Origin: an uncultured Candidatus Saccharibacteria bacterium
GTDB taxonomy: Bacteria > Patescibacteriota > Minisyncoccia > Phycocordibacterales > UBA6899
Length of the DNA stretch: 64,000 nucleotides
Direction: 5' to 3'
Assembly (NCBI GenBank): GCA_964386905.1
Contig: CAYLUP010000002.1
Location: forward strand, 64,522-128,521
Shown: in pieces, positions 2 to 30,210 of the stretch
Position numbering within the stretch: the stretch's first letter is position 1
How the letters are laid out: each line of letters starts with the position of its first letter
Program-made: the position numbers and the translations under genes
The notes under the pieces: model-generated
Told to the model about the DNA's origin: nothing
The model's database searches: none
The model's input: only the letters and a program-made list of their open reading frames with translations

Positions 2-3000
2 ACGTATCGGTATAAACCATCAGCACCACAGCAGGCAGAGACGGTGCGGTATTACGGAGTCCAGGGGACGGCTAACCCTGGCACTGCATCGACAACACCT
101 ACTGCAACAACAGTGTCAATCGCAAACACTGGTGCTGAGGTGAAGAATGCATGGTATCGCATACAGACACCAGCGTCTCGCACATCAAATATGAGTGTGT
201 TTGCTGATATTGGAGGCACAACGAGTGTCGGGCAAACATATCAGTTTACTGCACTCGCGACACCAGTTCGTGCGGGGAGAATGTCTACGATTGTCCACGA
301 TTTGTCGTCGCAATCAGCCGCGATCCAACCGGGCACGTCTATTAGTTTTTCTTATAAGTTTTCTGCGACGGGGAATGCGCCCTCCGCTTCAGAACTTTTT
401 GTTACATTTGTTTGGGATGGAGATATTGGAAGCGCAAAAACAAAAACTGCAGTGTATGCTGCATCACAACCCAACGTTGGTCTTGCAACTGCAAACCTCT
501 ATTACAACAGAACGGTAAAAATTACTTTTCCAGAACACGGAGCAAAAACACTCCATTCTTCTTATCTTTCTACTATTCTTCACCGCTCAGATACAACCGT
601 AAGTGCATCGGGGGCTATCTATATGAATGTAACATCGAATGTTGGGATTGCTATTAATGATACGAGTAATTCTGGCCGATCAATTACTTCATATCTTCTT
701 GCCCCAATCTCCGAGGAGGCGCTGCTTGGTTCTGTTGGGTTTGCATCTGAAAAGCACAGTATTAGTATTTCGCAGCGCATATCTGTTGCCGATCGCGCGT
801 TGTTCTCAAATGAAATCATTGTCACATATACTGCTATGTCCGAGGTTTTTGGAAAAAAACCTGAGCGACAAGTGCGTACTGTGGAGTATGTGTTTGGGGG
901 AGGAACTTCTGTCTCAACATATGCATCGAATATTTTTTCTTACGTTGGTTCTGGGTGGACCTCGACATCAAAGCCAAGTGGTGCAGGAACACGAAGGGTG
1001 GTAAAAATTCCTGGGACAAACGTACGTGTTGTTCATGCATACGTTGATGTTGAGTTTCAGACAACCTCATCGGTAAATATTACGGGGATAGACCTCCTTG
1101 GGGATGTAACATTGCCTGCAAGTGCACGTTCGCTCACAGATATCCGCCTCGACCAGGCGCAGCCGCAGGCTATTTCATATACGACTGGTGGGCAGACTGC
1201 GCTTCGAAGACAGATCAAAGTGACGCCATTGCTTTCCCAGGCATCTCCTGCAGATCTTGCTATTGGAGTAGAAATGCTTTTTGGGCTTAATGTCGTCGGC
1301 CCTACTCGCGCACTCTCCTCTATGAAGTTGGTCGTTACGTATGAAAGTGAGCTCGACTTCAACGCTATTGGAGGTGTTGAGGAGATAAAAACAGTACGAT
1401 TTCCACTAAACTCAACTACCGGTACGCGTGGGACACAGGGCGCGGTGTGTAACGCTGCTTCCTGCACCTTCACTTATACTCCAATCATGCCAGATTTGGC
1501 ACAAGTGGCTGATATTGAATCTGTTCATTTTGAGGTGGTGTCTACGTTAGCCGCAAATACAAACAGTAATCTTGCAATGCAAATTGCTGGAGGCACATTG
1601 TCATCCGCCTTTCCATGGGCTGAAGGAACAACGAACATCACTAACATGCGTTTTTTGTGGTCTCCGCCCGTTGGGGGCTCAGACTTCAATGTCGGGGTAC
1701 AACAGACGCTTGATATACGGAGGGCCGCCGGAGCATTATATGGTGTTGGTGGTGAGGTTGTTGTAACGTATCGCTATAATGGATACGCTCCCGTGCAAAC
1801 AGAAACCATTTCATATGCATTGGGCCAGACAACTGCTGCAGCCCAGGTTGGGTCATTTGGGACAACGAATGTGGTGATCGCAAACAAAGATGTTGCCGCT
1901 CAGAATGTTTGGATCAAAGCACAGCATGCTATCTATGCTCCAGGAACGATTACATTGAATGCAACAGTTGGCGCCGGGGCACAACGTTCACAGGCGTATG
2001 CATACAACTTCACCGACACAACTCGTGCGACTGGTGTCGCAACAACATACCTTGATCTCTCTGTCACGGATGCGGCAAATGTGAGCAGTTCAACGAACGT
2101 GACTGCAGGGTACTCCTATGCTGCGGCAACGAATCTCCCAAGCAGTATCAATGCAGAGCTCTATGTGACCTTTACGTGGTCTGGTGCAAAAGGAGGTCCG
2201 ATGACTCGCACGGCCTTGTATTCTGCCGCGCAGCCAGGAGTGCACGCAATTGCAAACAGGGAGCGATATGCACATACACCCATAACTATTCCAAAGTATG
2301 TTTCAAGTACATTTCATGATGCACGCATGATGATGTACACCCTACACAGCGGTGCGGCAAGTGGTGGTACGACAATTACTCATGGCACACTCACGGGAAA
2401 GCTCAAGGGGACTATTTTGTCCTTTACAACAAACGGAGATAGGGAGGCGCATAATAACACCATGCTGATAAAAGCGACCCCGGATGCACTTTTTGGCACA
2501 TCAACGCCAGAAAGCGGAGGATACGAAATGTCGTATCGGCAACTCGCAAGTGTCGCACAGCGCTTTGCGATATCTGGTGTGATTGGATTAACATATACAG
2601 AACAGCACGAATACCAGCAACCTACATTCGTGCAGAAAGGATTTCGTTTATATGTCAATAACAATGCATTGTTACCAGATGACCCGTGGTCTCTTGGCGC
2701 TCCTGATTTGGCAGAGAATGCAGAAATGACACTTCTTTCGCGACCAGTACGAAAAGGTGAGTTCATTCGATTGCGTATGAATATGCAGATTGGAACAACG
2801 ACATTGAATGCATCAACGTATCGCTTTCGACTCCAATACGGAGAGAAGGTCACGAGTTGTTCTGCCGTATCACAGTGGACGAATGTCGATGGCCCCGCTG
2901 GGGCGTCGATATGGAGAGGGAAGAATAGTCCACCAACTGCTGGCGCAGTGCTTAGTACAAACCCACCAGGTTTAGGTGAGCTCATCCTTTCTGCATCAAA

Positions 3001-4240
3001 TAGGGCAGGAACGTATGAGGAAGGAGGTGTTTCTGCACTGAATCCTTATGATGTTGCTGTTGGTGAATATGTGGAATACGATTGGAATATTGAACATAAT
3101 GGAGCGACGAAAGATACTGCATATTGTTTTCGTATGATTGAAGACAACGGAGATACATTCCTCTCGTATGCATATTACCCTGTGGTTATTGCTGCACCAT
3201 ATACTCCAGAAACAACAGACTGGCGGTGGTATGATGATTTTGGTACGACTCCTCTTGCACTCAAGAATACCGCACCATCGAGTGTTGAAAATGGAGAAAT
3301 TGTGAAATTGCGTATTGGCGTTAAGGATGTTGCCAATGAATCAGATGTTAACCTGCGCTTTGCGGTGCAATGGAGCGTTGATCCAACATTTGGCCGCGGA
3401 TCGACATTCGTGACACCACAGGGTGAATGTACGCCATACAGTACTTTTTGTTATGCAGATGGGGTTGGGGCAGATGACGCATCCCTCCCATCGTCATTGC
3501 TCTCTGGGTTGACACTTGGACGTTATAACGAAGCTACAAGTACTTCGACATTTAGCCCGGGCGCATTGAGCCATATCGAAATGGAGTATGCAATTAAACC
3601 TGTTCGTCAGAGAACAGGACAAGTATATTTCTTCCGTCTCTTTGATACAAAGCGAAATATTCCTGTTGTCTATAATAGCGGATATAGCTACCCATCATTT
3701 GTTGCTGAAGGGGCGACGCTCGGTGTATCAGTATCTGGAGTTAACGCAGGCGTCTCCATCGCTGGGTATACGACCTCAGCAACAACGACAGCGACAGAAC
3801 TTCCGTTTGGACTCTTGGAATTTGATACTTCTGGCATTTTGGCACACCAATTGAATATCCGTTCTAACGCTGCAGAGGGATTTCGCGTTGGTGTACGGTC
3901 GACAGATGACTTGAGAAACTCACTCGGAGAAACGATGTCTGCAATTACGCATCCGAATATAACCCCGGGCGTGTGGGAAAGTGGATGTTTGGCCTCCTTT
4001 GCAGGGTGTTTTGGGTACCATACAACAGATTCGACGTTATTTGGTGACTCAAGTCGCTTCGCTCCAAATCTTTGGGCGGGGATGTCTTCCACAACAGCAG
4101 AGGAAATCGCATTTAATGATATCCCAAACAACACTGTAGGTGAAAATATTGATGTACTCTATCGCATTGAGCCACATACACATGCGCTCGCGGGTGAATA
4201 TACGACTGATTTAATCTATATTGTGACACCAGTGTACTAA
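2..4240 (+). CDS. Large secreted/surface repeat protein, 5'-partial. The frame is open back to the window start, and the tool start at 44 is an internal GTG.
   Basis: No stop in this frame from nt 2 to 4240, so the gene starts upstream of the window. The product is Thr/Ser/Gly/Ala/Val-rich. It has internal duplicated segments, for example ELFVTFVWDGDIGSAKTKTAVYAASQPNVG and ELYVTFTWSGAKGGPMTRTALYSAAQPGVH. The C-terminal ~180 aa (SGVNAG ... EYTTDLIYIVTPVY) is homologous to the C-terminus of the 7064..8224 product. Confidence 0.6.
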   Translation, partial: TYRYKPSAPQQAETVRYYGVQGTANPGTASTTPTATTVSIANTGAEVKNAWYRIQTPASRTSNMSVFADIGGTTSVGQTYQFTALATPVRAGRMSTIVHDLSSQSAAIQPGTSISFSYKFSATGNAPSASELFVTFVWDGDIGSAKTKTAVYAASQPNVGLATANLYYNRTVKITFPEHGAKTLHSSYLSTILHRSDTTVSASGAIYMNVTSNVGIAINDTSNSGRSITSYLLAPISEEALLGSVGFASEKHSISISQRISVADRALFSNEIIVTYTAMSEVFGKKPERQVRTVEYVFGGGTSVSTYASNIFSYVGSGWTSTSKPSGAGTRRVVKIPGTNVRVVHAYVDVEFQTTSSVNITGIDLLGDVTLPASARSLTDIRLDQAQPQAISYTTGGQTALRRQIKVTPLLSQASPADLAIGVEMLFGLNVVGPTRALSSMKLVVTYESELDFNAIGGVEEIKTVRFPLNSTTGTRGTQGAVCNAASCTFTYTPIMPDLAQVADIESVHFEVVSTLAANTNSNLAMQIAGGTLSSAFPWAEGTTNITNMRFLWSPPVGGSDFNVGVQQTLDIRRAAGALYGVGGEVVVTYRYNGYAPVQTETISYALGQTTAAAQVGSFGTTNVVIANKDVAAQNVWIKAQHAIYAPGTITLNATVGAGAQRSQAYAYNFTDTTRATGVATTYLDLSVTDAANVSSSTNVTAGYSYAAATNLPSSINAELYVTFTWSGAKGGPMTRTALYSAAQPGVHAIANRERYAHTPITIPKYVSSTFHDARMMMYTLHSGAASGGTTITHGTLTGKLKGTILSFTTNGDREAHNNTMLIKATPDALFGTSTPESGGYEMSYRQLASVAQRFAISGVIGLTYTEQHEYQQPTFVQKGFRLYVNNNALLPDDPWSLGAPDLAENAEMTLLSRPVRKGEFIRLRMNMQIGTTTLNASTYRFRLQYGEKVTSCSAVSQWTNVDGPAGASIWRGKNSPPTAGAVLSTNPPGLGELILSASNRAGTYEEGGVSALNPYDVAVGEYVEYDWNIEHNGATKDTAYCFRMIEDNGDTFLSYAYYPVVIAAPYTPETTDWRWYDDFGTTPLALKNTAPSSVENGEIVKLRIGVKDVANESDVNLRFAVQWSVDPTFGRGSTFVTPQGECTPYSTFCYADGVGADDASLPSSLLSGLTLGRYNEATSTSTFSPGALSHIEMEYAIKPVRQRTGQVYFFRLFDTKRNIPVVYNSGYSYPSFVAEGATLGVSVSGVNAGVSIAGYTTSATTTATELPFGLLEFDTSGILAHQLNIRSNAAEGFRVGVRSTDDLRNSLGETMSAITHPNITPGVWESGCLASFAGCFGYHTTDSTLFGDSSRFAPNLWAGMSSTTAEEIAFNDIPNNTVGENIDVLYRIEPHTHALAGEYTTDLIYIVTPVY

Positions 4241-4245
4241 AAACT

Positions 4246-4267
4246 CTCCCAGAAGGGAGGGTTTTTA
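4246..4267 (+). terminator. Rho-independent terminator: ctccc-agaa-gggag followed by a T-run.
   Basis: Perfect 5-bp stem, 4-nt loop and ggttttt run 6 nt after the TAA of the upstream CDS. Confidence 0.55.
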
Positions 4268-4480
4268 GTTGGTGGGAGATGGGATAAGGGGTAGAGGGTA
4301 TGGGATAAGAAGAGGAGCGTATTTATATTTTGTTTAACACAGCGTGCTAATTGCGCCCATTGGAACGTTCTTTTTCACAGAGAACATTACCCATCAGCCA
4401 TACCCACTACCCCATACCCTGCACTCTCGTGAGGTCTGTGGAAAAGTGGCGAAGAATAAGCATTATTTGGTGTATACTGA

Positions 4481-5656
4481 ATGGAGGTGAAGTATCCAAA
4501 AACTCTCAACAAGTTGCCGATCACTTTCATGTCTCTGGGTGTATTCCTACTCCCATTTTTTGCATATGCGGCCCCATTTTCTCTTTCTCCGAAGGTCATA
4601 GATATTAAAGGTCGCGTTCGTGAGATTAGTCACCATGGTATTACCGTCAAAAATAACACTGAGGCATTGAGGAATATTTTTGTATGGGTTGTGGATGTTG
4701 ATCAAGCAAAAGGAGATTTATCCGATAAGGACATGAGTGGAGCAAATCAAAATGATGTTGTTACAAGCCCTGCCCGATGGATTGACATTCCTCGATCCAA
4801 TGAAGTGCTGCCAAAAGAAGAACAGACTATCCCTCTGCAGATTCAGATTCCCGGACAAGCAAAGCCAGGCATCTATCACGTCTCAGTGAAGTTTGCATCA
4901 GGTGAAACTCAATCTGCTGCGATGAAATGCAAGGAATGCACAGAAGAAGTTTCTCTGAATATTGAGGTCACTGAGGACATTCGTGAAAAACTTCAGTTGT
5001 ATGCATTCACGACTGCAAAAGATGTCTTCCTCAATCCAAAAGCAGATTTTACGTTTTCTGTTGAGAACACTGGAAATAAAGCCGTTGTGCCGAATGGAAA
5101 AATTCGTATTTTTAATAACATCGGAAAAGAAGTTGGTTTGATTGACGTGAATGGGGAAGGGAAACAAATTGACCCGAAGTCAAAAGAGCTTCTTGCTGCA
5201 ACATGGGCCGCGGGTGGAAAGTTTGGAAAGTATAAGGCTATGCTCGACGTGAGTTATGGACAACGGGGGACAATGCAGGATGTGGTCTACTTTTGGGTGA
5301 TTCCGTGGACGAAGCTGTTTGGCTTTATGTTCACATTGCTCTTAGGCGGAATTATCATCATGCTTTTCATTCGCACACGGACCCTGGCTCAGCCTGCATA
5401 TGCAAGGTCTTATAGTGAACCTACGCCGACAGAGAAAAATGACGAGCTTGTAATGACGCCTCGTCTGGAGAAAAAAACGGCATTTGAGAAAAAGCCTGTT
5501 CGTCTAGATGATGTCCTACTGCAATCAAAAACGCGTACACTAACGGAGGTGAATCTCCCTCCTCGAACACGAACTGTACCGCCCCAGGATTTCTCTGTAG
5601 CCCTAGAGACAAAAAAGGCAACGCCGACTGAATATCATATTGTGCGATTAAAATAG
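4481..5656 (+). CDS. Single-pass surface protein with the DUF916-like architecture: N-terminal signal/TM, beta-rich ectodomains, a C-terminal TM and a basic cytoplasmic tail.
   Basis: N-terminal hydrophobic segment LGVFLLPFFAYAAPFSLSP. A second hydrophobic helix FGFMFTLLLGGIIIMLFI lies near residue 290, followed by a K/R-rich tail. The domain pattern FS(L/V)xP ... W(I/V) ... IP ... G(I/D)Y is shared with the 5658..6788 and 22137..23207 products. Confidence 0.5.
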   Translation: MEVKYPKTLNKLPITFMSLGVFLLPFFAYAAPFSLSPKVIDIKGRVREISHHGITVKNNTEALRNIFVWVVDVDQAKGDLSDKDMSGANQNDVVTSPARWIDIPRSNEVLPKEEQTIPLQIQIPGQAKPGIYHVSVKFASGETQSAAMKCKECTEEVSLNIEVTEDIREKLQLYAFTTAKDVFLNPKADFTFSVENTGNKAVVPNGKIRIFNNIGKEVGLIDVNGEGKQIDPKSKELLAATWAAGGKFGKYKAMLDVSYGQRGTMQDVVYFWVIPWTKLFGFMFTLLLGGIIIMLFIRTRTLAQPAYARSYSEPTPTEKNDELVMTPRLEKKTAFEKKPVRLDDVLLQSKTRTLTEVNLPPRTRTVPPQDFSVALETKKATPTEYHIVRLK

Positions 5657-5657
5657 A

Positions 5658-6788
5658 ATGATGTATCGTCTTTCTCTTCAATACTCAATACTCTATACGA
5701 CCATAATGAGTCTCATTATGGTCGTTCTCCTATATCCCACCTTCGGGGAAGCATCTCTTGGTTCAGGTTTCTCTGTTGAGCCTGCGGTTATACACGTATC
5801 TGTTGCGGAAGATACACTTTTTTCTTCAGCGTTTACACTCAAGAACCTGGAAGCACAGCCCGTCTCAGTATCCATTCGTGTTGCAGATTTTGAGCCACTC
5901 GACTCTGGGGTAGGGGTTCGAGAGTTTGATCATCGTGTCGGGCCCGATGACCCTCTTTTTGCATCTTCTTGGGTTGCTTATCCAAAAGAGACGCTCACTC
6001 TTGCTCCAAAAAAGAAACTTTCCGTCCCATTTTCTATCCGCGTACCGAAAGACGCTGTTCCTGGTGGTAAATCAATTACATTTGTCGTAGAGACTATTGG
6101 GGGGAATGTGCATTCTCGTATGTATGTCCTATGCTTTTTGAATATTCCGGGGGATGCGCGCGAGCTCCTCACTATTGAAGATCTGTCATTTGGGTCACCA
6201 GTATACAATGCACCTCACGGACGCGTGTCTATCCAACTAAAAAATGATGGTGACACGCATATCCGTCCAGAGGGTGTTGTTGTTATTCGAAATATGTTTG
6301 GTGTTGAACGAGGGAGATACATGCTTTCCCATACCGATGCTGTTGGCACATTGGTTCCTGGGGCAAGGCGGACGATAGAGTATCTTTGGGTGGGAGATTC
6401 TGGCCTCTTTGACTTTGGACTATGGAATGCGCGGTTGACACTCACCTATGGAAATGGAAATACCCATGAAGTTTCTGCGCGAGCTTTCATGCTCTTGTTC
6501 CCCGTTCTACCCATGGCGCTCTTTGTGCTCACCATGGGTTCGTCACTTTTCATTGTCATGCGTTCTGTGCACACACTAAAACGAGAGCTTCGTCAATACA
6601 CGCATATCCCTTTTTCGGAACATGAGCATAGCATCATAGAACGACAGGCGAGTATGCGTCTTCTTGTCGTCCCGCTCCTCGCAGGCATCACATTGATTCT
6701 GATTATTGGTTTTACTCTCATTTCGTTTCTGGGAAATCAAGACGCAGGGAAGCTGGAGCGTGTACAAAAAATATACACGAGAGAATAA
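5658..6788 (+). CDS. Membrane-anchored two-domain surface protein, paralogous to 4481..5656 and 22137..23207, with DUF916+DUF3324-like architecture.
   Basis: Signal-like segment MSLIMVVLLYPTFGEA, so an alternative start at about 5706 is possible. Features: the GFSVEP motif, two beta-rich domains, C-terminal TM helices (LFPVLPMALFVLTMGSSLFIV, then LLVVPLLAGITLILIIGFTLISFL). It is only 1 nt downstream of the previous CDS, so they are likely co-transcribed. Confidence 0.5.
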   Translation: MMYRLSLQYSILYTTIMSLIMVVLLYPTFGEASLGSGFSVEPAVIHVSVAEDTLFSSAFTLKNLEAQPVSVSIRVADFEPLDSGVGVREFDHRVGPDDPLFASSWVAYPKETLTLAPKKKLSVPFSIRVPKDAVPGGKSITFVVETIGGNVHSRMYVLCFLNIPGDARELLTIEDLSFGSPVYNAPHGRVSIQLKNDGDTHIRPEGVVVIRNMFGVERGRYMLSHTDAVGTLVPGARRTIEYLWVGDSGLFDFGLWNARLTLTYGNGNTHEVSARAFMLLFPVLPMALFVLTMGSSLFIVMRSVHTLKRELRQYTHIPFSEHEHSIIERQASMRLLVVPLLAGITLILIIGFTLISFLGNQDAGKLERVQKIYTRE

Positions 6789-6790
6789 AA

Positions 6791-6812
6791 GACCCAGAGA
6801 GGTCTTTTTTGT
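6791..6812 (+). terminator. Rho-independent terminator: agacc-cagaga-ggtct followed by tttttt.
   Basis: Hairpin immediately after the TAA at 6786-6788, followed by a T6 run. Confidence 0.55.
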
Positions 6813-7063
6813 TGAGTTATACACAGAGAAGTGTTGGTTGTCCACAGGATATCCATGATGTTGTACACATATATAGTATAATAAACACAGGAGGAGTTCC
6901 TCCGTCGGGTGATTCGCGTCGTCCGAGGCAAATAAGTTTTGCGGGTTTTCCATTTTCCATAGCGCACTTGCGTTATGTCACAAGGCAACTTGTGCCCCCA
7001 CACTTATAGGCCGGGTGTCTCTCCCACAGAGCCACCCCAATTCTGCTTTGCAGAAAAGAAAAC

Positions 7064-8224
7064 ATGAATTATACAAAAGCATTTGCTTATTTGCGTGATC
7101 AAAAAGCATTTACTGCATTTTTGACTACTCTCGTTGTTATTGGTTCTTTTTCAGTTGTATTTGCAGCAAAGACTGCACGTGCAGACATCTTTGCATTCGA
7201 TAATGCAAGCGACAAGCTTTCAGATGCGAGCACAGGATCAACTGCAACTCACCTTGTGAGCTTCAGTCCTGGTGCAGAAAACGGTGGTATTCCTATGGGA
7301 AATGGCGGAAGTGCCCTTCCTATTGTTATGACGTTTACCGGCTTCACAGCACCAGTTGCAGTTGTTGATACAGATATTTCTATTACTGGCGCAACATACA
7401 TTAATACTGGTGCATGTGATGCTGGCGCAGCTGACCAAATTCGTTTCGTGGGCGCAACTAGTGGATTAAATCCTGCTGTGTCGCTCGAGCTCTGTGATGG
7501 TGATACTATTGCAACTACCGAAACAGTGGCAATCACTATCGGTAATGCAAAATTAGTAAACCCAGGAGCAATCGGTTCGTATAATGTAAACATTAGCGCA
7601 GTTGGTGCTACTGATACATTTGAATCAGACATCCTTGTTGCTATCGTTGATAAGGTTCGTGTTCGTGCAGCAGTTGATCCAATCTTTGCGTTTACTGTTT
7701 CTGGCGTGAATGCTGGAACAGCAATTCCATCTGTTGGAAATACTGGTGTAACAACAACTCCTTCAACAATTGACTTTGGTACACTTGCTTCAGGGACTCC
7801 AGTGCTTGCAGCACAAACACTCCAGGTGCGCACCAATGCAAACCAGGGATACAATGTTTATGCTCGCACAGACTCTGAATTCCAGTCAGCAAACGGTGCT
7901 ATTATTGATGGTTTTGCACTTGGAACACCAGCCCCATCTGCATGGGAAAGGCCAGCGGCTTTAATTGGTGATGATCGAACATGGGGACATTTTGGTCTTT
8001 CAAGCACAGACCTTTCTGCAACAGCATTTACTGTAGCAAACACCTGGGTAGGTAATTTTATTGATAACCCAGATGGCGTAAGCATCATGTCTGGCGCACG
8101 TCCTGTTGATGCTGCAAATCAGGGAACAGCTTCAGTTCTTTATCAGACTGAAATCACTGATCTCCAGGAAGCAGCAACTGACTATAAGACTGATATCATC
8201 TACGTAGCTACCCCTACGTTCTAA
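7064..8224 (+). CDS. Secreted surface protein, a small paralog of the C-terminal region of the 2..4240 product.
   Basis: N-terminal signal peptide FLTTLVVIGSFSVVFAAKTARA. The shared SGVNAG motif and the tail ATDYKTDIIYVATPTF are both present in 2..4240, which ends ...GEYTTDLIYIVTPVY. Confidence 0.55.
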   Translation: MNYTKAFAYLRDQKAFTAFLTTLVVIGSFSVVFAAKTARADIFAFDNASDKLSDASTGSTATHLVSFSPGAENGGIPMGNGGSALPIVMTFTGFTAPVAVVDTDISITGATYINTGACDAGAADQIRFVGATSGLNPAVSLELCDGDTIATTETVAITIGNAKLVNPGAIGSYNVNISAVGATDTFESDILVAIVDKVRVRAAVDPIFAFTVSGVNAGTAIPSVGNTGVTTTPSTIDFGTLASGTPVLAAQTLQVRTNANQGYNVYARTDSEFQSANGAIIDGFALGTPAPSAWERPAALIGDDRTWGHFGLSSTDLSATAFTVANTWVGNFIDNPDGVSIMSGARPVDAANQGTASVLYQTEITDLQEAATDYKTDIIYVATPTF

Positions 8225-9321: not shown

Positions 9322-9346
9322 AAAACACCTTTTGGTGTTTTTTTTA
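9322..9346. terminator. Bidirectional terminator: A-run, acacc-tttt-ggtgt, T-run.
   Basis: A symmetric hairpin flanked by an A-run and a T-run lies between the convergent genes 8305..9321 (+) and 9344..10126 (-). Confidence 0.55.
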
Positions 9347-10126
9347 TTGCTGTGACAATTGGGTGATTGCAGCACGAAATGCATCGATGGGCTGTGCACC
9401 GTTGACTGGGCGTTGACGTCCCGTCTTCACATTATAGAGAATATTGTGCGGTGTACCCTGAACGCCTGCCATGTCTCCATTTGCTTTGTCTGCTTGAATA
9501 CGCACAGCCATTTCTCCAGAGTCAAGACATGCGCCGAGTTTTTGCTTGTCGAGACCAACCATGTCAGCAATTCGGTCAAGGTCTTCGCGTTTGAGAGAGT
9601 TGTTTCCTTCTGTGATTTCAAACAACTTGTCTGTATACTTCCAGAACATTTCTTCACCCCCAATTTTTGCAGCACACTCAGTTGCTTCTGCCTCCTTTTC
9701 TGCATAGGTGTGGAATGGAAGTGCCCAGTGGCGGTAGACGATAGCAATCTTATCGCCGAATTCGCTTGCGATTTGCTTGATTGTTGTGTGATGTCGTTTA
9801 CAGAATGGACATTCGAGGTCAGACCATACAATCATTACAAGATCAGCATCAGGATTTCCTATGATGTGGTCCTCATCCCGAATTTGAAGATCTGGACTTA
9901 CTACTCCTGCAGTAGGGGATGCATTTTGTGTGCGTTTTGGGGTACCGTTGCTAGTACGACCAGTAAGGAGGATCGCTCCTGCAATAATGAGCCCCGCAAT
10001 AATTATGGAAACGGGAATCGCATATTGTTGTATATGTTTTGTTGTCATATTGTGTGTAAGTTTACCACTATGGTCGTAGTCGACGACAACGTCTTGTGTT
10101 TCAGTGCATGTGTCTTCGTGTTGCAT
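9344..10126 (-). CDS. Membrane-anchored DsbA-like thiol:disulfide oxidoreductase (thioredoxin fold, CPFC active site).
   Basis: CxxC motif LECPFCKRHH in a thioredoxin-like context. The N-terminal TM segment IPVSIIIAGLIIAGAILL lies after the M at 10126. The 5' extension in the tool ORF (start 10294) is Pro/Leu-rich low complexity, and the internal ATG at 10126 has a TGnTATAAT element 12 nt upstream. Confidence 0.55.
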   Translation of the reverse strand: MQHEDTCTETQDVVVDYDHSGKLTHNMTTKHIQQYAIPVSIIIAGLIIAGAILLTGRTSNGTPKRTQNASPTAGVVSPDLQIRDEDHIIGNPDADLVMIVWSDLECPFCKRHHTTIKQIASEFGDKIAIVYRHWALPFHTYAEKEAEATECAAKIGGEEMFWKYTDKLFEITEGNNSLKREDLDRIADMVGLDKQKLGACLDSGEMAVRIQADKANGDMAGVQGTPHNILYNVKTGRQRPVNGAQPIDAFRAAITQLSQQ

Positions 10127-10132
10127 AGTGAG

Positions 10133-10150
10133 AATATTATAGCATGAAAG
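10133..10150 (-). promoter_or_regulatory. Extended -10 promoter element (TGcTATAAT) for the DsbA-like gene.
   Basis: The reverse complement of 10127-10160 reads ...catgctataatattctcactATG. It contains a perfect TATAAT with an upstream TG, about 12 nt from the start codon, implying a short leader. Confidence 0.35.
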
Positions 10151-10169
10151 AGCGGTGGGTGGGGAGGAG

Positions 10170-10520
10170 TGATTAGGGAATACGGTGGTTAGTGGATAGT
10201 GGATGGTGGATAGGAAGAAAATGACTAAAGGGTGTGGGGTAAGGGAAAAGGGAGGGAGGAAGAAGTGAATAGTGGTACGTGAATAGAAAGTCATGAGTCA
10301 TGAGTCATCAGGTGTGAGAAGGAAGTATTTAGTATGCAGAATGAAGGACAATGTATTGTCATTGCGACGGCCCCGAGTCCGCGAGGGTCGGTGGCAATCC
10401 AGGACTGTGTTTGAGGATAGAGAATGGAGAAAGGTAAGAATGATTTATGATTTAAGAATTGTCATTGCGACAACCTTGAGTCTTCGAGAGTTGGTGGCAA
10501 TCCAGGATTGTATTTTGGGT
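10170..10520 (+). repeat. Composite intergenic repeat, upstream copy. It contains a purine-rich ggtggatRg microsatellite, a gagaatggagaaRggtaagaatgatttatgattta block, and two copies of a ~57-bp tgtcattgcgac...ggtggcaatccaggaYtgt element.
   Basis: The same blocks recur at 11262-11440 on the other side of engB. The 57-bp element is found at about 10352-10410, 10458-10512 and 11377-11434, and contains the imperfect inverted repeat attgcgac/gtggcaat. Confidence 0.6.
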
Positions 10521-12173: not shown

Positions 12174-13466
12174 GTGGATAGAGAGTCGAGACCCACGACT
12201 CTCTCTCCATGCTATACTATGTTTATGTTGGACTTTCTTTCGGAGAAAACACGAACACCTCTTCTGCATGGAAGTATTTTAATCGCATGCTCTAGCTTTT
12301 TAGTTTTTCTCTTCTGGAATATCTTCTCTGTGGCGCCTGTGTCTTTTTTTCATTCGTCCTTTTCTTATTTTTGGTTTTTTTTGGCGCTTTTTTTTGGGTT
12401 ACTTTCACAAACATCTTCATCCGCATTTCCATATCTTTTTACTTTTCTCCCATCGACACGTGAACGAGATCGGTTTGTTCCAATGCGTGCAGTGACGTAT
12501 GCATTCACTGTGCTTATACTTGCACTTGGTGTTGGTATGTCGACCTCATATTTGGGCTTTCCTATTTTTACGGCTCTCACGATATTTCCCTCGAGAGAAG
12601 TAGTGTTTGCTTCACTATGCATTGTGTCACTTTTGGTTGCATATGGAATGGGGCTGTATTGGACTGGTCTTATGTCCCATTCTCCTTCGTCATCACAGGC
12701 ACTTCGAATTCCTTTCGTGTATCGCTACCACAAAGTATTGAGTGATATCGTCTACGCTGGTTTCTCCTTTATTCTCGACATTGTTCCATTTTTATGGCTG
12801 CCTCTGCTGGACATCCTACTTCGTGGCGACATGCTCTATGGGTTATACGTATTGCTTGCATTTGCAATCGGGAGAATCCTTCCCGTTATCGTAGTCTCCA
12901 TATACACAGGATTTCATATCGATCTTTCAGCATGGCTTCTTCAAAAACGTCAGAGTGTACAATATACGATTGCCGGGACGTATATTATTGTCTCCGTATT
13001 TCTCTTTTCTTTTTCCACACAGATGATTACGCAAATTCTCCCATATTTTCGTGATCGTGCGCAGCTTGTCTTTGTGTTCACTGATACGATGCTCCCGATT
13101 TTATTGATTCTTCCACTTTGGATATACTTTTTTGTGCGATTTCGAAAGGTATATAGTTCGCTTTCAGCGCAACTCGCAGATATACGCACACACCTCAATG
13201 CCCTGTTGCGGATCAGGGGACGATTATCGATTCATTGTGCGCTGCTTCCACATTCTCCCCAGCGCTGTCTTTCTTCCATTCAAAATTATATTCAAGATTT
13301 AGACCACGAAGCAGCGGTTCTTTCTTCTGCCGTTCGTCATCAACTTCACACTCCGCTGCGTGCACGTAATGTTCAGGAAAGAGAAGAGCGAAGATTATGG
13401 GTATTGCTTTTACATACTACTGTATGTTCTGTGGCTACGATTGTTCTCTATTATGTATTCTTATAA
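12174..13466 (+). CDS. Polytopic integral membrane protein of unknown function.
   Basis: At least 8 hydrophobic helices (F/L/I-rich). It starts 1 nt after the YggU-like gene, so it is probably co-transcribed. Confidence 0.45.
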   Translation: MDRESRPTTLSPCYTMFMLDFLSEKTRTPLLHGSILIACSSFLVFLFWNIFSVAPVSFFHSSFSYFWFFLALFFGLLSQTSSSAFPYLFTFLPSTRERDRFVPMRAVTYAFTVLILALGVGMSTSYLGFPIFTALTIFPSREVVFASLCIVSLLVAYGMGLYWTGLMSHSPSSSQALRIPFVYRYHKVLSDIVYAGFSFILDIVPFLWLPLLDILLRGDMLYGLYVLLAFAIGRILPVIVVSIYTGFHIDLSAWLLQKRQSVQYTIAGTYIIVSVFLFSFSTQMITQILPYFRDRAQLVFVFTDTMLPILLILPLWIYFFVRFRKVYSSLSAQLADIRTHLNALLRIRGRLSIHCALLPHSPQRCLSSIQNYIQDLDHEAAVLSSAVRHQLHTPLRARNVQEREERRLWVLLLHTTVCSVATIVLYYVFL

Positions 13467-14334: not shown

Positions 14335-15816
14335 GTGAATCTGTTTTTTGAAAGAACAGTGATTCTGGTAACAGTCCTCGTTTCTGGGGCGTTTTTTGGT
14401 CTGCATGCTTTTGCTCAAGTTTCCGGAGATGGTGTCCCACCGAAGCTTTCAAACATTATTGTTTCTGACGTCACCGCAACAAGTGCTGTTGTGACGTGGG
14501 AGACAGATGAGGAGGCAGATTCGGAAGTGAATTATTGTTTGACAAAGGATTATGGTATTGCACGAAATCCTGTTGCCGACAAGAAACAGCACCGCATGTT
14601 TTTGGAAAATCTTGATCCATCCACACTCTACCACCTACGTGTCGGTTCGAAAGATACTGGAGGGAATCAGGCACTTTCTGGAGATTATACATTCTTTACA
14701 CAGGGAGTGATCCAAGTAAAAACATTGGAGCGGCTCGTTCCAGAGGAGCGCATTAACGTTGAAAAAGTTGTTCAAATTCTTCAGCGTGTTGAGTCCCAAG
14801 AAGCTCTCGAGATTATTCAGCAGGAAGTTACAAAAGCGATAAAAAAGAATACCGATCCGCCACTTATTATGGGTCCACCGAATATCAAAGAAATCGGCAT
14901 GGACTATGTGATTGTTGAGTGGGTGACCGATGAAGAATCTTCTTCTATTGTCGAGTATGCGCGAGAGCAGGAATATGATGCATCTGTCCCAGATCGCTAT
15001 TCTTCTCAGACAACAGATGCGGCGATGACAAAAGAGCACATTATTCGTGTTGTGGGCCTCAACCCTGGAACGATGTATCACCTTCGTGCGGGCTCAGAGA
15101 ATGGTGTTGGGTTGACTGGGTATTCGAGAGATGTGACATTCCAGACGAAGTCGCCAATGCCAACAATCCAGAGTTTTCGTGTGATTAAGGCAGAGGCAGA
15201 TAGCGCGACATTGGGCTGGAAAACGAGTGTACCTGCAGCAGGTATTGTTGAGTATACCGATATTAAAACAAAAGAAGTTCGCTCGGCCGGTTCTCCTATT
15301 TTTGCCTCAACGCAGGCAGTAAAAATTGCAGGCTTGAAACTGGGCGCGCGTTATAAAGCAGTAGTGAAAGCAGAGAATGCGGCAGGCGAAAAAACTGTGA
15401 GTGAGCCGCTCTACTTCTCGACAGTGAAAGATACGACACCTCCAATCATCAGTAAGGTCACAAATGAATCAACATTGTATCCAACTGCGGAGGCAAAAGT
15501 GCAGACTATCATTTCGTGGGCAACTGATGAGCCAGCATACTGTACGATGCATTATCGCGCTGGACTGAATCCGAGCATCGAACCCGTTCATCGCGAAGAA
15601 GAGAGAGAACCAAGAACAAATCATGTGGAAGTTGTTATTGAGTTTATGCCGTCAACGGTGTACCAATTCTGGATGACTTGCCGTGACTCTTCTCGTAATT
15701 CTGCAGAGTCAGAAAAGTTTGTACTCTTCACCCCAAATAAGGAAAAGAGCATTATTGATATCATCCTCGAAAACTTTGAAGGCGCATTTGGATGGGTAAA
15801 GAATATTGGAAAATAA
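14335..15816 (+). CDS. Secreted protein with four fibronectin type III-like repeats.
   Basis: N-terminal signal/TM VILVTVLVSGAFFGLHAFA. Four ~95-aa modules each contain a W...(E/D) core and a tyrosine corner, for example PPKLSNIIVSDVTATSAVVTWETDEEADSEVNY...YHLRVGSKDTGGN and ...EWVTDEESSSIVEYA...YHLRAGSENGVG. Confidence 0.6.
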   Translation: MNLFFERTVILVTVLVSGAFFGLHAFAQVSGDGVPPKLSNIIVSDVTATSAVVTWETDEEADSEVNYCLTKDYGIARNPVADKKQHRMFLENLDPSTLYHLRVGSKDTGGNQALSGDYTFFTQGVIQVKTLERLVPEERINVEKVVQILQRVESQEALEIIQQEVTKAIKKNTDPPLIMGPPNIKEIGMDYVIVEWVTDEESSSIVEYAREQEYDASVPDRYSSQTTDAAMTKEHIIRVVGLNPGTMYHLRAGSENGVGLTGYSRDVTFQTKSPMPTIQSFRVIKAEADSATLGWKTSVPAAGIVEYTDIKTKEVRSAGSPIFASTQAVKIAGLKLGARYKAVVKAENAAGEKTVSEPLYFSTVKDTTPPIISKVTNESTLYPTAEAKVQTIISWATDEPAYCTMHYRAGLNPSIEPVHREEEREPRTNHVEVVIEFMPSTVYQFWMTCRDSSRNSAESEKFVLFTPNKEKSIIDIILENFEGAFGWVKNIGK

Positions 15817-18847: not shown

Positions 18848-18851
18848 GCAT

Positions 18852-22028: not shown

Positions 22029-22030
22029 AA

Positions 22031-25428: not shown

Positions 25429-25430
25429 AA

Positions 25431-25457
25431 ATAAACACGCACGTGTTTATTTTTTTG
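25431..25457 (+). terminator. Rho-independent terminator: aaacac-gcac-gtgttt followed by a T-run.
   Basis: Palindrome plus a T-rich tail immediately after the TAA. Confidence 0.5.
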
Positions 25458-25502
25458 TGCATAACTTCAAAGGCGAAAGAGATTGCATGGTATACTAAGA
25501 GT

Positions 25503-28853: not shown

Positions 28854-29237
28854 TTATGACAAGTGCGTTTTGACTCGCGCAACAATATCTTCGAGCCCCC
28901 ATTCACTTTTTATCAGGAACTCTGTTTTCTGATAGCCAGAGATGGTTGCAACTGTAGTCGCGTCGACGGAGTTTGTAATCACCATGACAAAGACCGTTGC
29001 TCCCCATGCGTCCTCATTGCGAAGCTTGTGGAGCATTGAAATACCATCCATATTAGGCATAAAAATATCGAGCAAAATAATCGAAGGGTGGTGGAGGAGC
29101 GCTGTGCTTAATCCCTCTGCTCCGTCTTTAGCCGTTAAGACTCCAAAACCCTCCTCGCGAAGTCTATCTGAGAGTACTTGCCGAAGAGCGTGATCATCCT
29201 CGATGATGAGTACTTTTTTTGGAATAGCATTTGTCAT
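28854..29237 (-). CDS. Stand-alone response-regulator receiver (CheY-like) protein.
   Basis: VLIIEDDHALRQVL...ILLDIFMPNMDGISMLHKLR, with the conserved phospho-acceptor Asp (LLD) and the DD pair. There is no output domain. Confidence 0.7.
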   Translation of the reverse strand: MTNAIPKKVLIIEDDHALRQVLSDRLREEGFGVLTAKDGAEGLSTALLHHPSIILLDIFMPNMDGISMLHKLRNEDAWGATVFVMVITNSVDATTVATISGYQKTEFLIKSEWGLEDIVARVKTHLS

Positions 29238-29241
29238 GATG

Positions 29242-29646: not shown

Positions 29647-29699
29647 AATGTGTGGATGTTTTCTCGCGATGGTTTTCTATCTGTGATATAGTATTTCGT

Positions 29700-30150: not shown

Positions 30151-30210
30151 CAGATTTTGGTATACTACGGGAACTTATTCGTTGTCCACGTGGACGTAAG
30201 ACATCGTATT

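What the first reader, a model, noticed from the sequence alone, without database searches (positions are those of the whole stretch)
2..8224. Csc/WxL-like gene organisation: large secreted proteins sharing a C-terminal tail, interleaved with DUF916/DUF3324-like single-pass anchor proteins (repeated again at 20148-23207)
Three paralogous type-I membrane proteins share an F[SG][VIL][ST]P-initiated two-domain ectodomain plus a C-terminal TM and basic tail. This is the architecture of DUF916-DUF3324 (WxL-interacting) proteins of Firmicutes csc clusters. Each sits next to large secreted proteins: 4481..5656 and 5658..6788 next to 2..4240 and 7064..8224, and 22137..23207 next to 20148..22028. Those secreted proteins end in a conserved tail ([GT][ED]Y[TK]x[DV] followed by an alternating hydrophobic strand, e.g. 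...EYTTDLIYIVTPVY and ...DYKTDIIYVATPTF), which could be a non-covalent anchoring or sorting element analogous to WxL. Such a system would be unexpected in this lineage and may be an undescribed surface-display pathway.
Basis: inference. Interest (0 to 1): 0.65.

Follow-up and report, generated by a model that had tools for sequence, protein, structure and literature searches.

The report
Pam-type pilus genes in a Paceibacterium
These genes most likely build a thin surface filament of the recently described "Pam" type in an ultra-small (CPR) bacterium: membrane-tethered helper proteins would join the subunits end to end, and the shared C-terminal "tail" is the last strand of the subunits' joining domain rather than a sorting signal.

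Summary
All six ORFs exist as described. B (4481..5656), C (5658..6788) and F (22137..23207) are true paralogues: signal peptide, two Ig-like domains, TM helix, cytoplasmic tail.

A (2..4240) and D (7064..8224) share a whole ~175-aa C-terminal domain, not just a tail. E (20148..22028) does not detectably share it.

That domain matches NCBIfam NF058581, "CPR_Pam_pilin_C", end to end. The match is significant but below the curated cut-off. Pam pili were described in a 2026 preprint on a Saccharimonadia bacterium.

Pfam WxLIP and WxL profiles are not met.

In 40 related genomes, mostly labelled Parcubacteria/Paceibacteria lineages, the operon has a fixed order:
- a giant protein with the domain but no linker (acceptor only);
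- two anchors;
- a pilin with linker and domain;
- a third anchor;
- a protein with pilin N-domain and linker but a dockerin instead of the domain (donor only);
- a cohesin-like membrane protein.

This polarity indicates a donor-strand-exchange filament.

The second window locus (ABC transporter, E, F, dockerin protein G, cohesin-like H and I) is a conserved companion module.

Verdict: a divergent variant of a known kind, with new features.

The parts
2..4240 (+). A: C-terminal 1412 aa of a 1776-aa secreted protein. Proposed tip adhesin: a large variable N-terminal region plus an acceptor-only Pam-type C-terminal domain.
   Evidence: ORF. Full length and signal peptide from the identical contig L001. 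No Pfam hit. The first-gene position is conserved in 29 related loci, with sizes of 445-2413 aa.
3716..4237 (+). C-terminal domain of A (residues 1239-1412 of the window translation). It ends in '...AGEYTTDLIYIVTPVY' followed directly by the stop codon, and lacks the conserved linker.
   Evidence: D-family HMM E=1.3e-26. NF058581 positions 3-148 of 148, E=1.1e-4, 22.3 bits. In 27 of 29 tip-type proteins the domain HMM match starts after the linker, at positions 16-22.
4244..4259 (+). Hairpin followed by a T-run, directly after the stop codon of A. Possible terminator or attenuator.
   Evidence: The number of such sites in the region is at chance level, so only its position is notable.
4481..5656 (+). 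B: membrane-anchored protein with two Ig-like domains, the proposed pilin chaperone. Domain 1 at nt 4577-4969, domain 2 at 4991-5299, TM helix at 5306-5389, disordered cytoplasmic tail ending 'HIVRLK' at 5636-5653.
   Evidence: AF2 model with pLDDT 80. Foldseek matches to WxLIP 9i25_C (3.5e-11), RbmA and the CfaA chaperone. Family of 1330 or more proteins. Tail motif.
5658..6788 (+). C: a paralogue of B and second proposed chaperone, with two C-terminal hydrophobic segments.
   Evidence: BLASTP against B 3e-13. B-like HMM E=1e-12. TM scan. The C-type gene follows the B-type gene in nearly all of the 40 loci.
7064..8224 (+). D: proposed shaft pilin. Signal peptide, N-terminal beta-sandwich (nt 7184-7645), conserved linker and putative donor strand 'DKVRVRAAVDPIFAF' (7646-7693), C-terminal domain (7694-8221) ending '...LQEAATDYKTDIIYVATPTF' followed directly by the stop codon.
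   Evidence: AF2 model with pLDDT 88. NF058581 positions 2-148 of 148, E=7.8e-4; 23 of 40 and 78 of 121 relatives hit the model, best E=1.5e-10. 3187 cluster representatives. Linker consensus. Match to the CfaB donor strand.
9344..10294 (-). Membrane-anchored DsbA-like thiol-disulfide oxidoreductase next to the operon. A possible folding factor for the cysteine pairs of the secreted subunits.
   Evidence: PF13462 1.7e-17 and PF01323 5.7e-12. A conserved Cys pair is visible in the tip-type domains printed.
14335..15816 (+). Secreted protein of FN3 repeats that opens the conserved second module.
   Evidence: fn3 2.7e-20. Syntenic in L043, L044 and L045.
17510..20060 (+). MacB-type ABC transporter: ATPase with a long C-terminal extension (17510..18847) and a MacB_PCD/FtsX permease (18852..20060), directly upstream of E.
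   Evidence: The same order is found in three other genomes.
20148..22028 (+). E: 626-aa secreted protein paired with F. Its mature N-terminus 'STVRVLNTPP' (nt 20286-20315) is invariant. Its C-terminal domain is of a separate type, not detectably Pam-like.
   Evidence: 162 homologues. Invariant V51 L52 N53 T54 P56. No link to the D family. The E-type C-terminal ~250 aa is shared by other proteins in L043 and L045.
22137..23207 (+). F: a distant paralogue of B and C, from the largest subfamily. It has a TM helix (22968-23051) and a tail ending 'DVVDLKRR' (23181-23204).
   Evidence: B-like HMM E=7e-8 and F-like HMM against B 2.5e-4. E and F are adjacent in four genomes.
23211..24431 (+). G: secreted protein with DUF4215 Cys-rich repeats, an Ig-like region and a C-terminal dockerin. 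By eye, its Ig-like region and dockerin end resemble the C-terminal part of the donor-only 'pilin N-domain-dockerin' proteins of related operons.
   Evidence: DUF4215 2.1e-9 and Dockerin_1 4.4e-9. phmmer G hits to the donor-only proteins at 1e-31 to 1e-44.
24433..27125 (+). H (24433..25428) and I (25443..27125): cohesin-like ectodomains with a C-terminal TM helix. Proposed membrane docking sites. I ends in 'AGVVDLRKK'.
   Evidence: Weak Cohesin hits with E=0.012 and 0.2; the record for the L043 homologue lists a Cohesin hit. TM segments. An I-like gene follows the dockerin protein in 8 loci.
28164..28847 (-). J: small protein with a C-terminal dockerin and an N-terminal region similar to the cohesin-like parts of H and I. 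Possible adaptor.
   Evidence: Dockerin_1 3.2e-7. BLASTP links to H- and I-like proteins.

Best explanation
The finding is a Pam-type pilus gene cluster of a CPR bacterium of the Parcubacteria/Paceibacteria group. Pam pili are usher-less filaments assembled by donor-strand exchange, in which a strand from one subunit completes the fold of the previous one.

Shown here:
- A and D end in a homologous ~175-aa beta domain related to the Pam pilin C-terminal domain.
- D has an N-terminal sandwich, a highly conserved linker and that C-terminal domain.
- B, C and F are paralogous type-I membrane proteins with two Ig-like domains.
- The gene order is conserved in 40 genomes.

Inferred mechanism:
1. 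After Sec export, the incomplete C-terminal domain of each subunit is capped by a strand of a membrane-anchored chaperone (B, C or F).
2. A has the domain but no linker. It can only accept a strand, so it starts the filament as the distal tip adhesin.
3. D subunits add one after another. Each inserts its linker strand into the groove of the previous subunit and displaces that subunit's chaperone.
4. The growing fibre therefore stays tethered to the membrane through whichever chaperone caps the proximal subunit.
5. In most relatives, a donor-only subunit ends growth. It has the pilin N-domain and linker, no C-terminal domain, and a C-terminal dockerin.
6. That dockerin hands the fibre to a membrane-anchored cohesin-like protein. 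The window's G, H and I are the corresponding parts.

The conserved tail is the last strand of the acceptor domain, and the protein always stops right after its terminal aromatic residue. This parallels the C-terminal F strand and free carboxylate that chaperone-usher pilins present to their chaperone.
For: Pilin domain:
- NF058581 'CPR_Pam_pilin_C' is matched end to end by D (E=7.8e-4) and by the C-terminal domain of A (1.1e-4).
- It is matched by 10 of 10 tip-type domains (down to 6e-10), by 23 of 40 D relatives and by 78 of 121 relatives (best 1.5e-10).
- It is the only family hit consistently.
- The AF2 model of D has two beta domains and pLDDT 88. Its Foldseek matches include the FimH-FimG and PapG pilin complexes and the TasA fibre.

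Anchors:
- The AF2 model of B has two sandwich domains and a TM helix.
- Its Foldseek matches are WxLIP, RbmA, PapD-like domains and the CfaA fimbrial chaperone.
- The Pam preprint describes PamC and PamD as PapD-like chaperones with a C-terminal TM helix, and pilins built as N-domain, linker and C-domain.

Polarity:
- The domain HMM starts after the linker in 27 of 29 first-gene proteins, but at the linker in 27 of 27 D-type pilins.
- All 55 complete proteins with the domain stop exactly at the tail.
- The linker consensus is 'RVAIvDxVTVTAsVDTsfTFT'.
- The only PDB sequence match of the D profile is the CfaB donor strand 'VEKNITVTASVDPVI' fused into dsc-CfaE (E=0.18).
- Donor-only proteins ending in a dockerin are followed by cohesin-like TM genes.

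Operon: the order is conserved in 40 species-level genomes.
Against: - All NF058581 scores (17-39 bits) lie below the curated 55-bit cut-off.
- No sequence of PamA-E, PamT or PamR could be obtained, so homology of B, C and F to PamC and PamD is untested. B, C and F hit no Pam-named NCBIfam model at E<=1, and none is among the families listed for the anchor relatives.
- No multimer model could be run, so strand insertion is inferred, not shown.
- Foldseek TM-scores are low (0.2-0.4), and tandem Ig folds are common.
- The closest solved structure of the anchors is WxLIP, which is thought to hold WxL proteins at the surface rather than polymerise them.
- Within its 64 kb, the window lacks the third anchor and the donor-only subunit seen in relatives.
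- The match to the CfaB strand is not statistically significant.
- No filament has been observed in any organism carrying this operon.
Confidence: 0.7

Rival explanations
1. WxL/Csc-like surface display without polymerisation, essentially the first reader's idea. The anchors are WxLIP homologues that stay bound by strand insertion to the C-terminal domain of A and D. They hold these proteins non-covalently at the membrane as monomeric adhesins.
For: WxLIP is the top structural match of B (9i25_C at 3.5e-11 and 9i1y at 2e-10). The topology is the same: signal peptide, two Ig-like domains, TM helix. AF2 predicts that a DUF916 strand inserts into WxL (PMC10599100). WxL clusters likewise combine a domain-only protein, a large protein with a C-terminal domain, and one anchor.
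Against: The anchors do not reach the Pfam WxLIP thresholds. The D family has no WxL profile hit. No WxL chain is in the top 50 structural matches of D. Simple anchoring does not explain the ultra-conserved linker in D, its absence from the tip-type protein, or the subunit with N-domain and linker but no C-terminal domain. The C-terminal domain matches a model built from experimentally resolved filament subunits.
Confidence: 0.15
2. E-F-G-H-I, together with the ABC transporter, is an independent surface system. It could be a cohesin-dockerin scaffold or a second filament type. It would merely reuse the same anchor fold and would be functionally unrelated to A-D.
For: The E family has no detectable Pam-type domain and does not occur in the 40 B-type loci. 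Its own synteny (FN3, ABC, FtsX, E, F, G, H, I) is conserved separately.
Against: In L044 a D-type pilin (38% identical to D) sits between G and H. In relatives, G-like dockerin bodies are fused to the pilin N-domain, and I-like cohesin proteins close the A-D-type operon. F is a paralogue of B and C.
Confidence: 0.3
3. This is a chance grouping of unrelated Ig-like surface proteins, and the shared tail is a compositional coincidence.
For: Ig-like folds and beta-rich, Thr/Ser-rich secreted proteins are very common in CPR genomes. Many weak Pfam hits to unrelated Ig families were seen.
Against: The domain-level homology has E=1.3e-26. The gene order is fixed in 40 genomes. All 55 complete proteins with the domain end exactly at the motif.
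Confidence: 0.02

Closest known systems
Pam pili of Candidatus Mycosynbacter amalyticus (Saccharimonadia): PamA, PamB and PamE pilins, PamT tip, PamC and PamD membrane-anchored chaperones, PamR terminator (bioRxiv 10.64898/2026.03.03.709456; NCBIfam NF058581, NF058579)
   Same: - It is CPR-specific.
- Pilins are built as N-terminal beta-sandwich, conserved linker and C-terminal open Ig-like domain.
- The C-terminal domain matches NF058581 end to end.
- The chaperone candidates have two Ig-like domains plus a C-terminal TM helix.
- There is no usher.
- The operon contains an acceptor-only first subunit.
- The linker and the C-terminal strand are the most conserved parts.
   Different: - Scores fall below the NCBIfam cut-off, so standard annotation leaves these genes as 'hypothetical'.
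- The lineage is Parcubacteria/Paceibacteria, which the preprint does not mention.
- The tip is a 445-2413-aa protein rather than a single-domain PamT.
- There are three or four anchor paralogues.
- No RbmA-like, TM-anchored PamR is present. Relatives instead have a donor-only subunit ending in a dockerin, followed by a cohesin-like membrane protein.
- A companion module with a MacB-type ABC transporter and the E family is present.
- The anchors carry a conserved cytoplasmic end motif.
WxL (Csc) clusters of Firmicutes: WxLIP (DUF916 + DUF3324 + TM) with small and large WxL proteins (PMC10599100; PDB 9i1y, 9i25)
   Same: WxLIP is the best PDB structural match of anchor B, with the same topology. 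In both systems a membrane-anchored two-Ig protein sits next to secreted proteins that share a C-terminal domain into which a strand is predicted to insert. Both occur in monoderm envelopes.
   Different: There is no significant Pfam DUF916, DUF3324 or WxL similarity. The partner domain is Pam-type, not WxL. It lacks the dual Trp-x-Leu definition and was not tested for peptidoglycan binding. The linker logic here indicates polymerisation, which is not proposed for WxL.
Chaperone-usher pili (Pap/Fim; class 5 CFA/I)
   Same: Both have an incomplete Ig-like subunit domain with a conserved C-terminal strand at the very end of the protein. Both are structurally matched by two-domain chaperones (CfaA at 3.7e-8). 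Both follow the order tip adhesin, shaft, terminator. The D linker resembles the CfaB donor strand.
   Different: There is no outer membrane and no usher. The chaperone is membrane-anchored. The donor strand is an internal linker between two domains rather than an N-terminal extension.
Cellulosome-type cohesin-dockerin anchoring
   Same: G carries a type-I dockerin, as do the donor-only subunits of relatives. H, I and J carry cohesin-like modules on membrane-anchored proteins.
   Different: No enzymes are attached. Here the pair would tether a filament base to the membrane. The cohesin hits in the window proteins themselves are weak.

Membership tests
Pam pilus system (CPR) | Pilin C-terminal domain scores above the curated cut-off (55 bits) of NCBIfam NF058581 CPR_Pam_pilin_C | tested here: not met
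   D scores 19.6 bits and the C-terminal domain of A 22.3 bits. The best tip-type relative scores 39.4 bits. The best E among 121 representatives is 1.5e-10.
Pam pilus system (CPR) | Statistically significant, end-to-end similarity of the C-terminal domain to the Pam pilin C-terminal domain | tested here: met
   Model positions 2/3-148 of 148 are aligned up to the protein's last residue in D, A and 9 of 10 tip-type domains. E-values range from 1e-4 to 6e-10. 23 of 40 and 78 of 121 relatives hit the model, and no other family recurs.
Pam pilus system (CPR) | Pilin architecture: N-terminal beta-sandwich, single linker strand, C-terminal open Ig-like domain | tested here: met
   AF2 model of D (pLDDT 88): strands 41-194, coil 195-207, strands 208-384. 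The linker is the most conserved segment. An open groove could not be inspected because no coordinates were available.
Pam pilus system (CPR) | Assembly by donor-strand exchange, with the linker of subunit n+1 in the C-terminal domain of subunit n | not testable with these tools
   No multimer prediction was available. The evidence is indirect only: the acceptor-only, donor+acceptor and donor-only classes, and the match to the CfaB donor strand at E=0.18.
Pam pilus system (CPR) | PapD-like chaperones of two beta domains with a C-terminal TM helix (PamC, PamD) | tested here: inconclusive
   The architecture is met. B, C and F hit no Pam-named NCBIfam model at E<=1.
Pam pilus system (CPR) | Single-domain tip pilin PamT (NF058579) | tested here: not met
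   Only faint hits to NF058579 (E=0.02 and 0.13, against a 240-bit cut-off). The acceptor-only role is taken here by a large multi-domain protein.
Pam pilus system (CPR) | RbmA-like, TM-anchored terminator PamR | tested here: not met
   None was recognised in the operon or its relatives. Relatives instead have a protein with N-domain, linker and dockerin, followed by a cohesin-like TM protein. RbmA is only a generic structural match of anchor B.
WxL/Csc cluster (Firmicutes) | Anchor belongs to Pfam WxLIP_PGBD (DUF916, PF06030) and WxLIP_HBD (DUF3324) | tested here: not met
   PF06030: C has E=0.33; 12 of 58 relatives hit, best E=1.4e-3, all below the 27.3-bit cut-off. DUF3324 gave no hit for B, C or F and is not among the families listed for the relatives. 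Other Ig-like families score equally. The anchor profile finds no WxLIP chain in PDB sequences.
WxL/Csc cluster (Firmicutes) | Anchor has the WxLIP three-dimensional architecture (two Ig-like domains plus a TM helix) | tested here: met
   The top Foldseek match is 9i25_C (E=3.5e-11, 271 columns, 15% identity); 9i1y gives 2e-10. TM-scores are low (0.24-0.37), and CfaA and RbmA match similarly.
WxL/Csc cluster (Firmicutes) | Partner proteins end in a WxL domain | tested here: not met
   None of the 40 D-family members hits a WxL profile at E<=1. A, D and E have no Pfam hits. No WxL chain is among the top 50 Foldseek matches of D.
Chaperone-usher pili | Outer-membrane usher | tested here: not met
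   No operon gene has an usher-like Pfam or NCBIfam hit. The conserved operon contains only subunits, anchors, and dockerin and cohesin proteins.
Chaperone-usher pili | PapD-family chaperone and pilin with an incomplete Ig fold | tested here: inconclusive
   Structural matches were found to CfaA (3.7e-8) and to FimH and PapG (2e-5 to 5e-4). There is no sequence-level signal apart from the CfaB donor-strand match at E=0.18.
Cohesin-dockerin pair | Type-I dockerin on one partner and a cohesin on a membrane-anchored partner | tested here: inconclusive
   Dockerin: G 4.4e-9 and J 3.2e-7. Cohesin: H E=0.012 and I E=0.2, both below cut-off. The precomputed record for the I-like homologue in L043 lists a Cohesin hit.

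The most novel reading that the evidence does not exclude
The membrane-anchored two-Ig-domain proteins of this operon, and by extension PamC and PamD, may be homologues of Firmicutes WxLIP (DUF916/DUF3324). If so, CPR Pam pili and WxL/Csc clusters would be two branches of one ancient monoderm system. In that system a membrane-tethered chaperone completes the open C-terminal domain of secreted proteins by strand insertion.

The Paceibacteria branch would add a previously unseen way of anchoring a donor-strand-exchange fibre. A donor-only terminal subunit would plug the fibre base through its dockerin into a cohesin on a membrane protein. A conserved cytoplasmic end motif ([IV][IV]xL[KR][KR]) and a MacB-type ABC transporter would couple assembly to the cytoplasm.
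Probability: 0.25. Interest if true: 0.75.

Novelty: new variant of a known kind. Interest (0 to 1): 0.55.

Why it matters
Parcubacteria/Paceibacteria lineages make up a large part of the CPR (my own background knowledge, not tested here), and how they touch their hosts is largely unknown.

- **Scale.** This operon family is large: at least 3187 pilin cluster representatives and at least 1330 anchors. It is annotated throughout as hypothetical.
- **Reach of the Pam system.** Recognising it as a Pam-type filament extends a system so far resolved only in one Saccharimonadia isolate.
- **Testable host-contact candidate.** The family offers a giant, highly variable tip protein as a candidate host-recognition adhesin.
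- **Two leads the Pam preprint does not mention.** One is the structural kinship of the chaperones with WxLIP of Gram-positive bacteria. The other is cohesin-dockerin anchoring of the filament base.

Tried and rejected
**Searches that found nothing useful**
- PDB sequence searches with D, B and their family profiles found nothing significant.
- The PamA and PamB entries (25PZ, 25QA) are not in the local PDB copy. The preprint supplement holds no sequences.
Direct comparison with PamC, PamD, PamR and PamT was therefore impossible.
- Rfam found only the tRNA.
- The promoter and terminator scan was at chance level.

- The search for related loci with the mixed anchor alignment failed because no block was conserved enough. 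It was repeated with B-type sequences only.

**Tests on E**
- E was tested as a third carrier of the tail by BLASTP, HMM, NCBIfam and two hhalign runs. All were negative or marginal. E is therefore not filed as a Pam-type pilin.

**Ideas considered and rejected**
- I considered the anchors' C-terminal TM helix and basic stretch as an exosortase-, sortase- or PEP-CTERM-like sorting signal. Weak NCBIfam hits to several CTERM models appeared. I rejected this because 50-90 further residues with their own conserved end motif follow the helix.
- No internal repeats were found in A.

Full report
**What is at the coordinates**

I call them:
- A (2..4240, cut by the window edge)
- B (4481..5656)
- C (5658..6788)
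- D (7064..8224)
- E (20148..22028)
- F (22137..23207)

An identical Logan contig shows that A is a 1776-aa protein with its own signal peptide. B, C and F each have an N-terminal signal-like segment, a C-terminal hydrophobic helix (two in C) and a charged tail. D and E have N-terminal signal-like segments. The window has ~45% GC.

Its closest named homologues are from Candidatus Paceibacterota, Lloydbacteria, Giovannonibacteria, Adlerbacteria, Sungbacteria and other Parcubacteria. The organism is therefore a CPR bacterium of the Parcubacteria/Paceibacteria group.

**The anchors**

Paralogy was tested without circularity. An HMM built only from database B-like proteins finds C (E=1e-12) and F (E=7e-8) among the 447 window ORFs. 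An HMM of F-like proteins finds B (E=2.5e-4). BLASTP of B against C gives 3e-13. The family has at least 1330 members at 90% clustering.

The AF2 model of B has mean pLDDT 80. It shows:
- two beta-sandwich domains (residues 33-163 and 171-273);
- a TM helix (276-303);
- a disordered tail.

Foldseek against the PDB ranks 9i25_C first. This is 'WxLIP from Enterococcus faecium locus A bound to long WxL' (E=3.5e-11, 271 columns, 15% identity). 9i1y (WxLIP) follows, along with RbmA, PapD-like and ASH domains, and the CfaA fimbrial chaperone (3.7e-8). [quoted passage not shown]

- PF06030 (DUF916) is hit only below threshold (C: E=0.33; 12 of 58 relatives, best 1.4e-3).
- DUF3324 gave no hit for B, C or F and is not among the families listed for the relatives.
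- Several unrelated Ig-like families score as well.
- The family profile finds no WxLIP chain among PDB sequences.

**The secreted partners**

A and D share a domain, not merely a tail:
- D211-386 against A1243-1412 gives 27% identity, E=2e-9.
- An HMM of 40 D relatives that excludes A hits A1239-1412 at E=1.3e-26.

NCBIfam NF058581, 'CPR_Pam_pilin_C, Pam pilus system pilin subunit', aligns end to end (positions 2/3-148 of 148) up to the last residue of:
- D (E=7.8e-4);
- the C-terminal domain of A (1.1e-4);
- nine other tip-type domains (down to 6e-10).

It is also hit by 23 of 40 D relatives and by 78 of 121 relatives (best 1.5e-10). It is the only family hit consistently. All scores stay below the curated 55-bit cut-off.

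The D family is large, with 3187 cluster representatives at E<=1e-3 among 1.84 billion.

The AF2 model of D has pLDDT 88. It shows an N-terminal sandwich (41-194), a coil (195-207) and a C-terminal beta domain (208-384). Its Foldseek matches are generic two-domain Ig-like adhesins. They include FimH with the FimG strand, PapG and the TasA fibre, but no WxL chain in the top 50. No WxL profile is hit by any of the 40 family members.

E is different:
- BLASTP, the D-family HMM and NCBIfam find nothing.
- hhalign aligns only a 15-column 'IxFGxLxPG' motif.

**The literature**

A 2026 preprint (10.64898/2026.03.03.709456) resolved 'Pam' pili of the Saccharimonadia bacterium Ca. Mycosynbacter amalyticus by cryo-EM. 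It reports that:
[quoted passage not shown] That domain accepts the linker of the neighbouring pilin.
- PamT is a tip subunit made of the domain alone.
- PamC and PamD are PapD/FimC-like chaperones that carry a C-terminal TM helix.
- PamR is a TM-anchored terminator.
- There is no usher.

This is the architecture seen here. The preprint does not mention WxL, DUF916, Paceibacteria or Parcubacteria.

The WxLIP paper (PMC10599100) describes DUF916 and DUF3324 as two Ig-like domains followed by a TM helix. It also reports an AF2 prediction that a DUF916 strand inserts into the WxL domain.

**Conserved operon and its polarity**

A genome-contig scan with B-type sequences returned 40 species-level loci. 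Mapping family HMMs onto them gives one recurring gene order:
1. a large protein of 445-2413 aa ending in the Pam-type domain;
2. a B-type anchor;
3. a C-type anchor;
4. one or two D-type pilins;
5. a third anchor;
6. a protein of 437-695 aa with a D-like N-domain and the first part of the linker, no C-terminal domain, Pro/Gly-rich and Ig-like regions, and a C-terminal dockerin;
7. where the flank allows, an I-like cohesin/TM gene (8 loci) or a J-like gene (2 loci).

Three observations define the polarity:
- The domain HMM match starts after the linker (positions 16-22) in 27 of 29 first-gene proteins. It starts at the linker (positions 1-3) in 27 of 27 D-type pilins.
- All 55 complete proteins with the domain stop exactly at the tail. 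Tip-type proteins end '[PA]G.Y.[ST]...Y[IV][IV]VP[IVT][FY]'. Pilins end 'LQEAA.DY...L.Y[VI][AC]TP[TVI]F'.
- The pilin linker consensus is 'RVAIvDxVTVTAsVDTsfTFT'.

The only PDB sequence match of the D profile is weak (E=0.18). It is the CfaB donor strand 'VEKNITVTASVDPVI' that was engineered onto CfaE in 2hb0. That this segment is the CfaB strand is from my knowledge of that construct.

The three classes are acceptor-only, donor-plus-acceptor and donor-only. They are what a polar donor-strand-exchange fibre requires. Simple anchoring would not explain them.

**The second locus**

F is a distant paralogue of B and C, and the order around it recurs in three other Paceibacteria contigs:
1. FN3 protein (14335..15816)
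2. ABC ATPase (17510..18847)
3. MacB_PCD/FtsX permease (18852..20060)
4. E
5. F
6. G (DUF4215 repeats, Ig-like region and dockerin)
7. H and I (cohesin-like ectodomain plus TM helix)

In one of these contigs (L044), a D-type pilin (38% identical to D) sits between G and H. G is related to the donor-only proteins of the other operons (phmmer 1e-31 to 1e-44). By eye, the similarity lies in their Ig-like region and dockerin end.

The window's two loci therefore look like one system that is contiguous elsewhere. In the window it is split, and the third anchor and the fused donor-only subunit are not visible within its 64 kb.

E's mature N-terminus 'STVRVLNTPP' is invariant in 34 relatives and resembles the D linker. 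E's role remains open.

**How it most likely works**

The steps below are inferred from the anatomy above, from the Pam model, and from established chaperone-usher biology.
1. Subunits are exported by Sec.
2. The incomplete C-terminal domain of each subunit is capped by a strand of a membrane-anchored chaperone (B, C or F).
3. A, which can only accept a strand, nucleates the fibre as the distal adhesin.
4. D subunits add at the base. Each inserts its linker and displaces the chaperone of the previous subunit. The fibre therefore stays tethered through the proximal chaperone.
5. A donor-only subunit ends growth. Because it has no chaperone tether, it carries a dockerin that binds a membrane cohesin-like protein (H- or I-type).

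On this reading the conserved tail is the last strand bordering the groove. Chaperone-usher pilins likewise present their C-terminal strand and free carboxylate to the chaperone. The invariable stop right after the terminal aromatic residue fits that picture.

I put this explanation at about 0.7. The main rival is non-polymerising WxL-like display, at about 0.15.

**Comparison, novelty and limits**

What it works like: a Pam pilus.

Membership:
- Homology of the pilin C-terminal domain is supported, but the curated cut-off is not reached.
- The pilin and chaperone architectures are met.
- PamT- and PamR-type components are not met.
- Homology of the anchors to PamC and PamD could not be tested, because no Pam sequences or structures were reachable.

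It is not a WxL cluster by Pfam criteria, although WxLIP is the closest solved fold to the anchors. The Pam preprint does not mention this link.

I rate it a new variant of a known kind. Its new features are:
- the Parcubacteria/Paceibacteria lineage;
- the giant variable tip;
- the dockerin/cohesin base;
- the ABC-transporter companion module;
- the conserved cytoplasmic end motif.

Noticed in passing
window 5636..5653 (B), 23181..23204 (F), 27099..27122 (I): The extreme C-terminus of the cytoplasmic tails is conserved. B-type anchors end 'H[IV][IV][NR]L[KR][KR]'. F-type anchors end 'GVVDL[SK]RRR'. The cohesin-like TM protein I ends 'AGVVDLRKK'. The motif occurs in most of the 58 family members. 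This looks like a short linear motif for an unknown cytoplasmic partner.
   Followed up: partly
window 17510..20060: A MacB-type ABC transporter lies directly upstream of E and F, and does so in four genomes. Its ATPase has a ~220-aa C-terminal extension, and the permease has MacB_PCD and FtsX domains. It may couple ATP hydrolysis to assembly or release of the surface structure.
   Followed up: partly
window 20286..20315 (E) and 23358..23399 (G): The mature N-termini of E ('STVRVLNTPP', invariant in 34 relatives) and of G ('TVTTTIAVSICGN', similar in three relatives) resemble the pilin linker, the putative donor strand. They could be N-terminal donor strands.
   Followed up: partly
window 9344..10294 (-), 29640..30128 (+), 30157..30840 (+): Envelope folding factors flank the surface-protein loci: a membrane-anchored DsbA-like oxidoreductase, a small thioredoxin-like protein, and a cyclophilin PPIase with an N-terminal extension. 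The tip-type domains have a conserved Cys pair ('GC...GC[FYW]GYH').
   Followed up: partly
window 28164..28847 (-), 28854..29646 (-): J combines an N-terminal region similar to the cohesin-like parts of H and I with a C-terminal dockerin, and may be an adaptor. It is followed by two stand-alone response-regulator receiver genes.
   Followed up: partly
L043 3211..5841; L045 2874..4076: The C-terminal ~250 aa of E is itself a shared C-terminal domain. It is carried by other secreted proteins in related genomes (E=3e-16 and 9e-12). This second 'common C-terminal domain' family is distinct from the Pam type.
   Followed up: no
window 4244..4259: A hairpin followed by a T-run lies four bases after the stop codon of A. 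It could separate expression of the tip gene from the chaperone genes. The count of such sites in the region is at chance level.
   Followed up: no
window 41097..44561 (+), 38964..40994 (-), 12174..13466 (+): Three large ORFs (1154 aa, 676 aa, and 430 aa with many hydrophobic segments) have no Pfam hit.
   Followed up: no
L004, L005, L014, L017, L018, L022, L023, L025, L026, L031, L035, L041; L034: Twelve loci with the full operon carry the record title 'uncultured Candidatus Saccharibacteria bacterium', and one is titled 'Gammaproteobacteria'. Either the operon reaches beyond Paceibacteria or these MAG labels are loose. This was not resolved.
   Followed up: no
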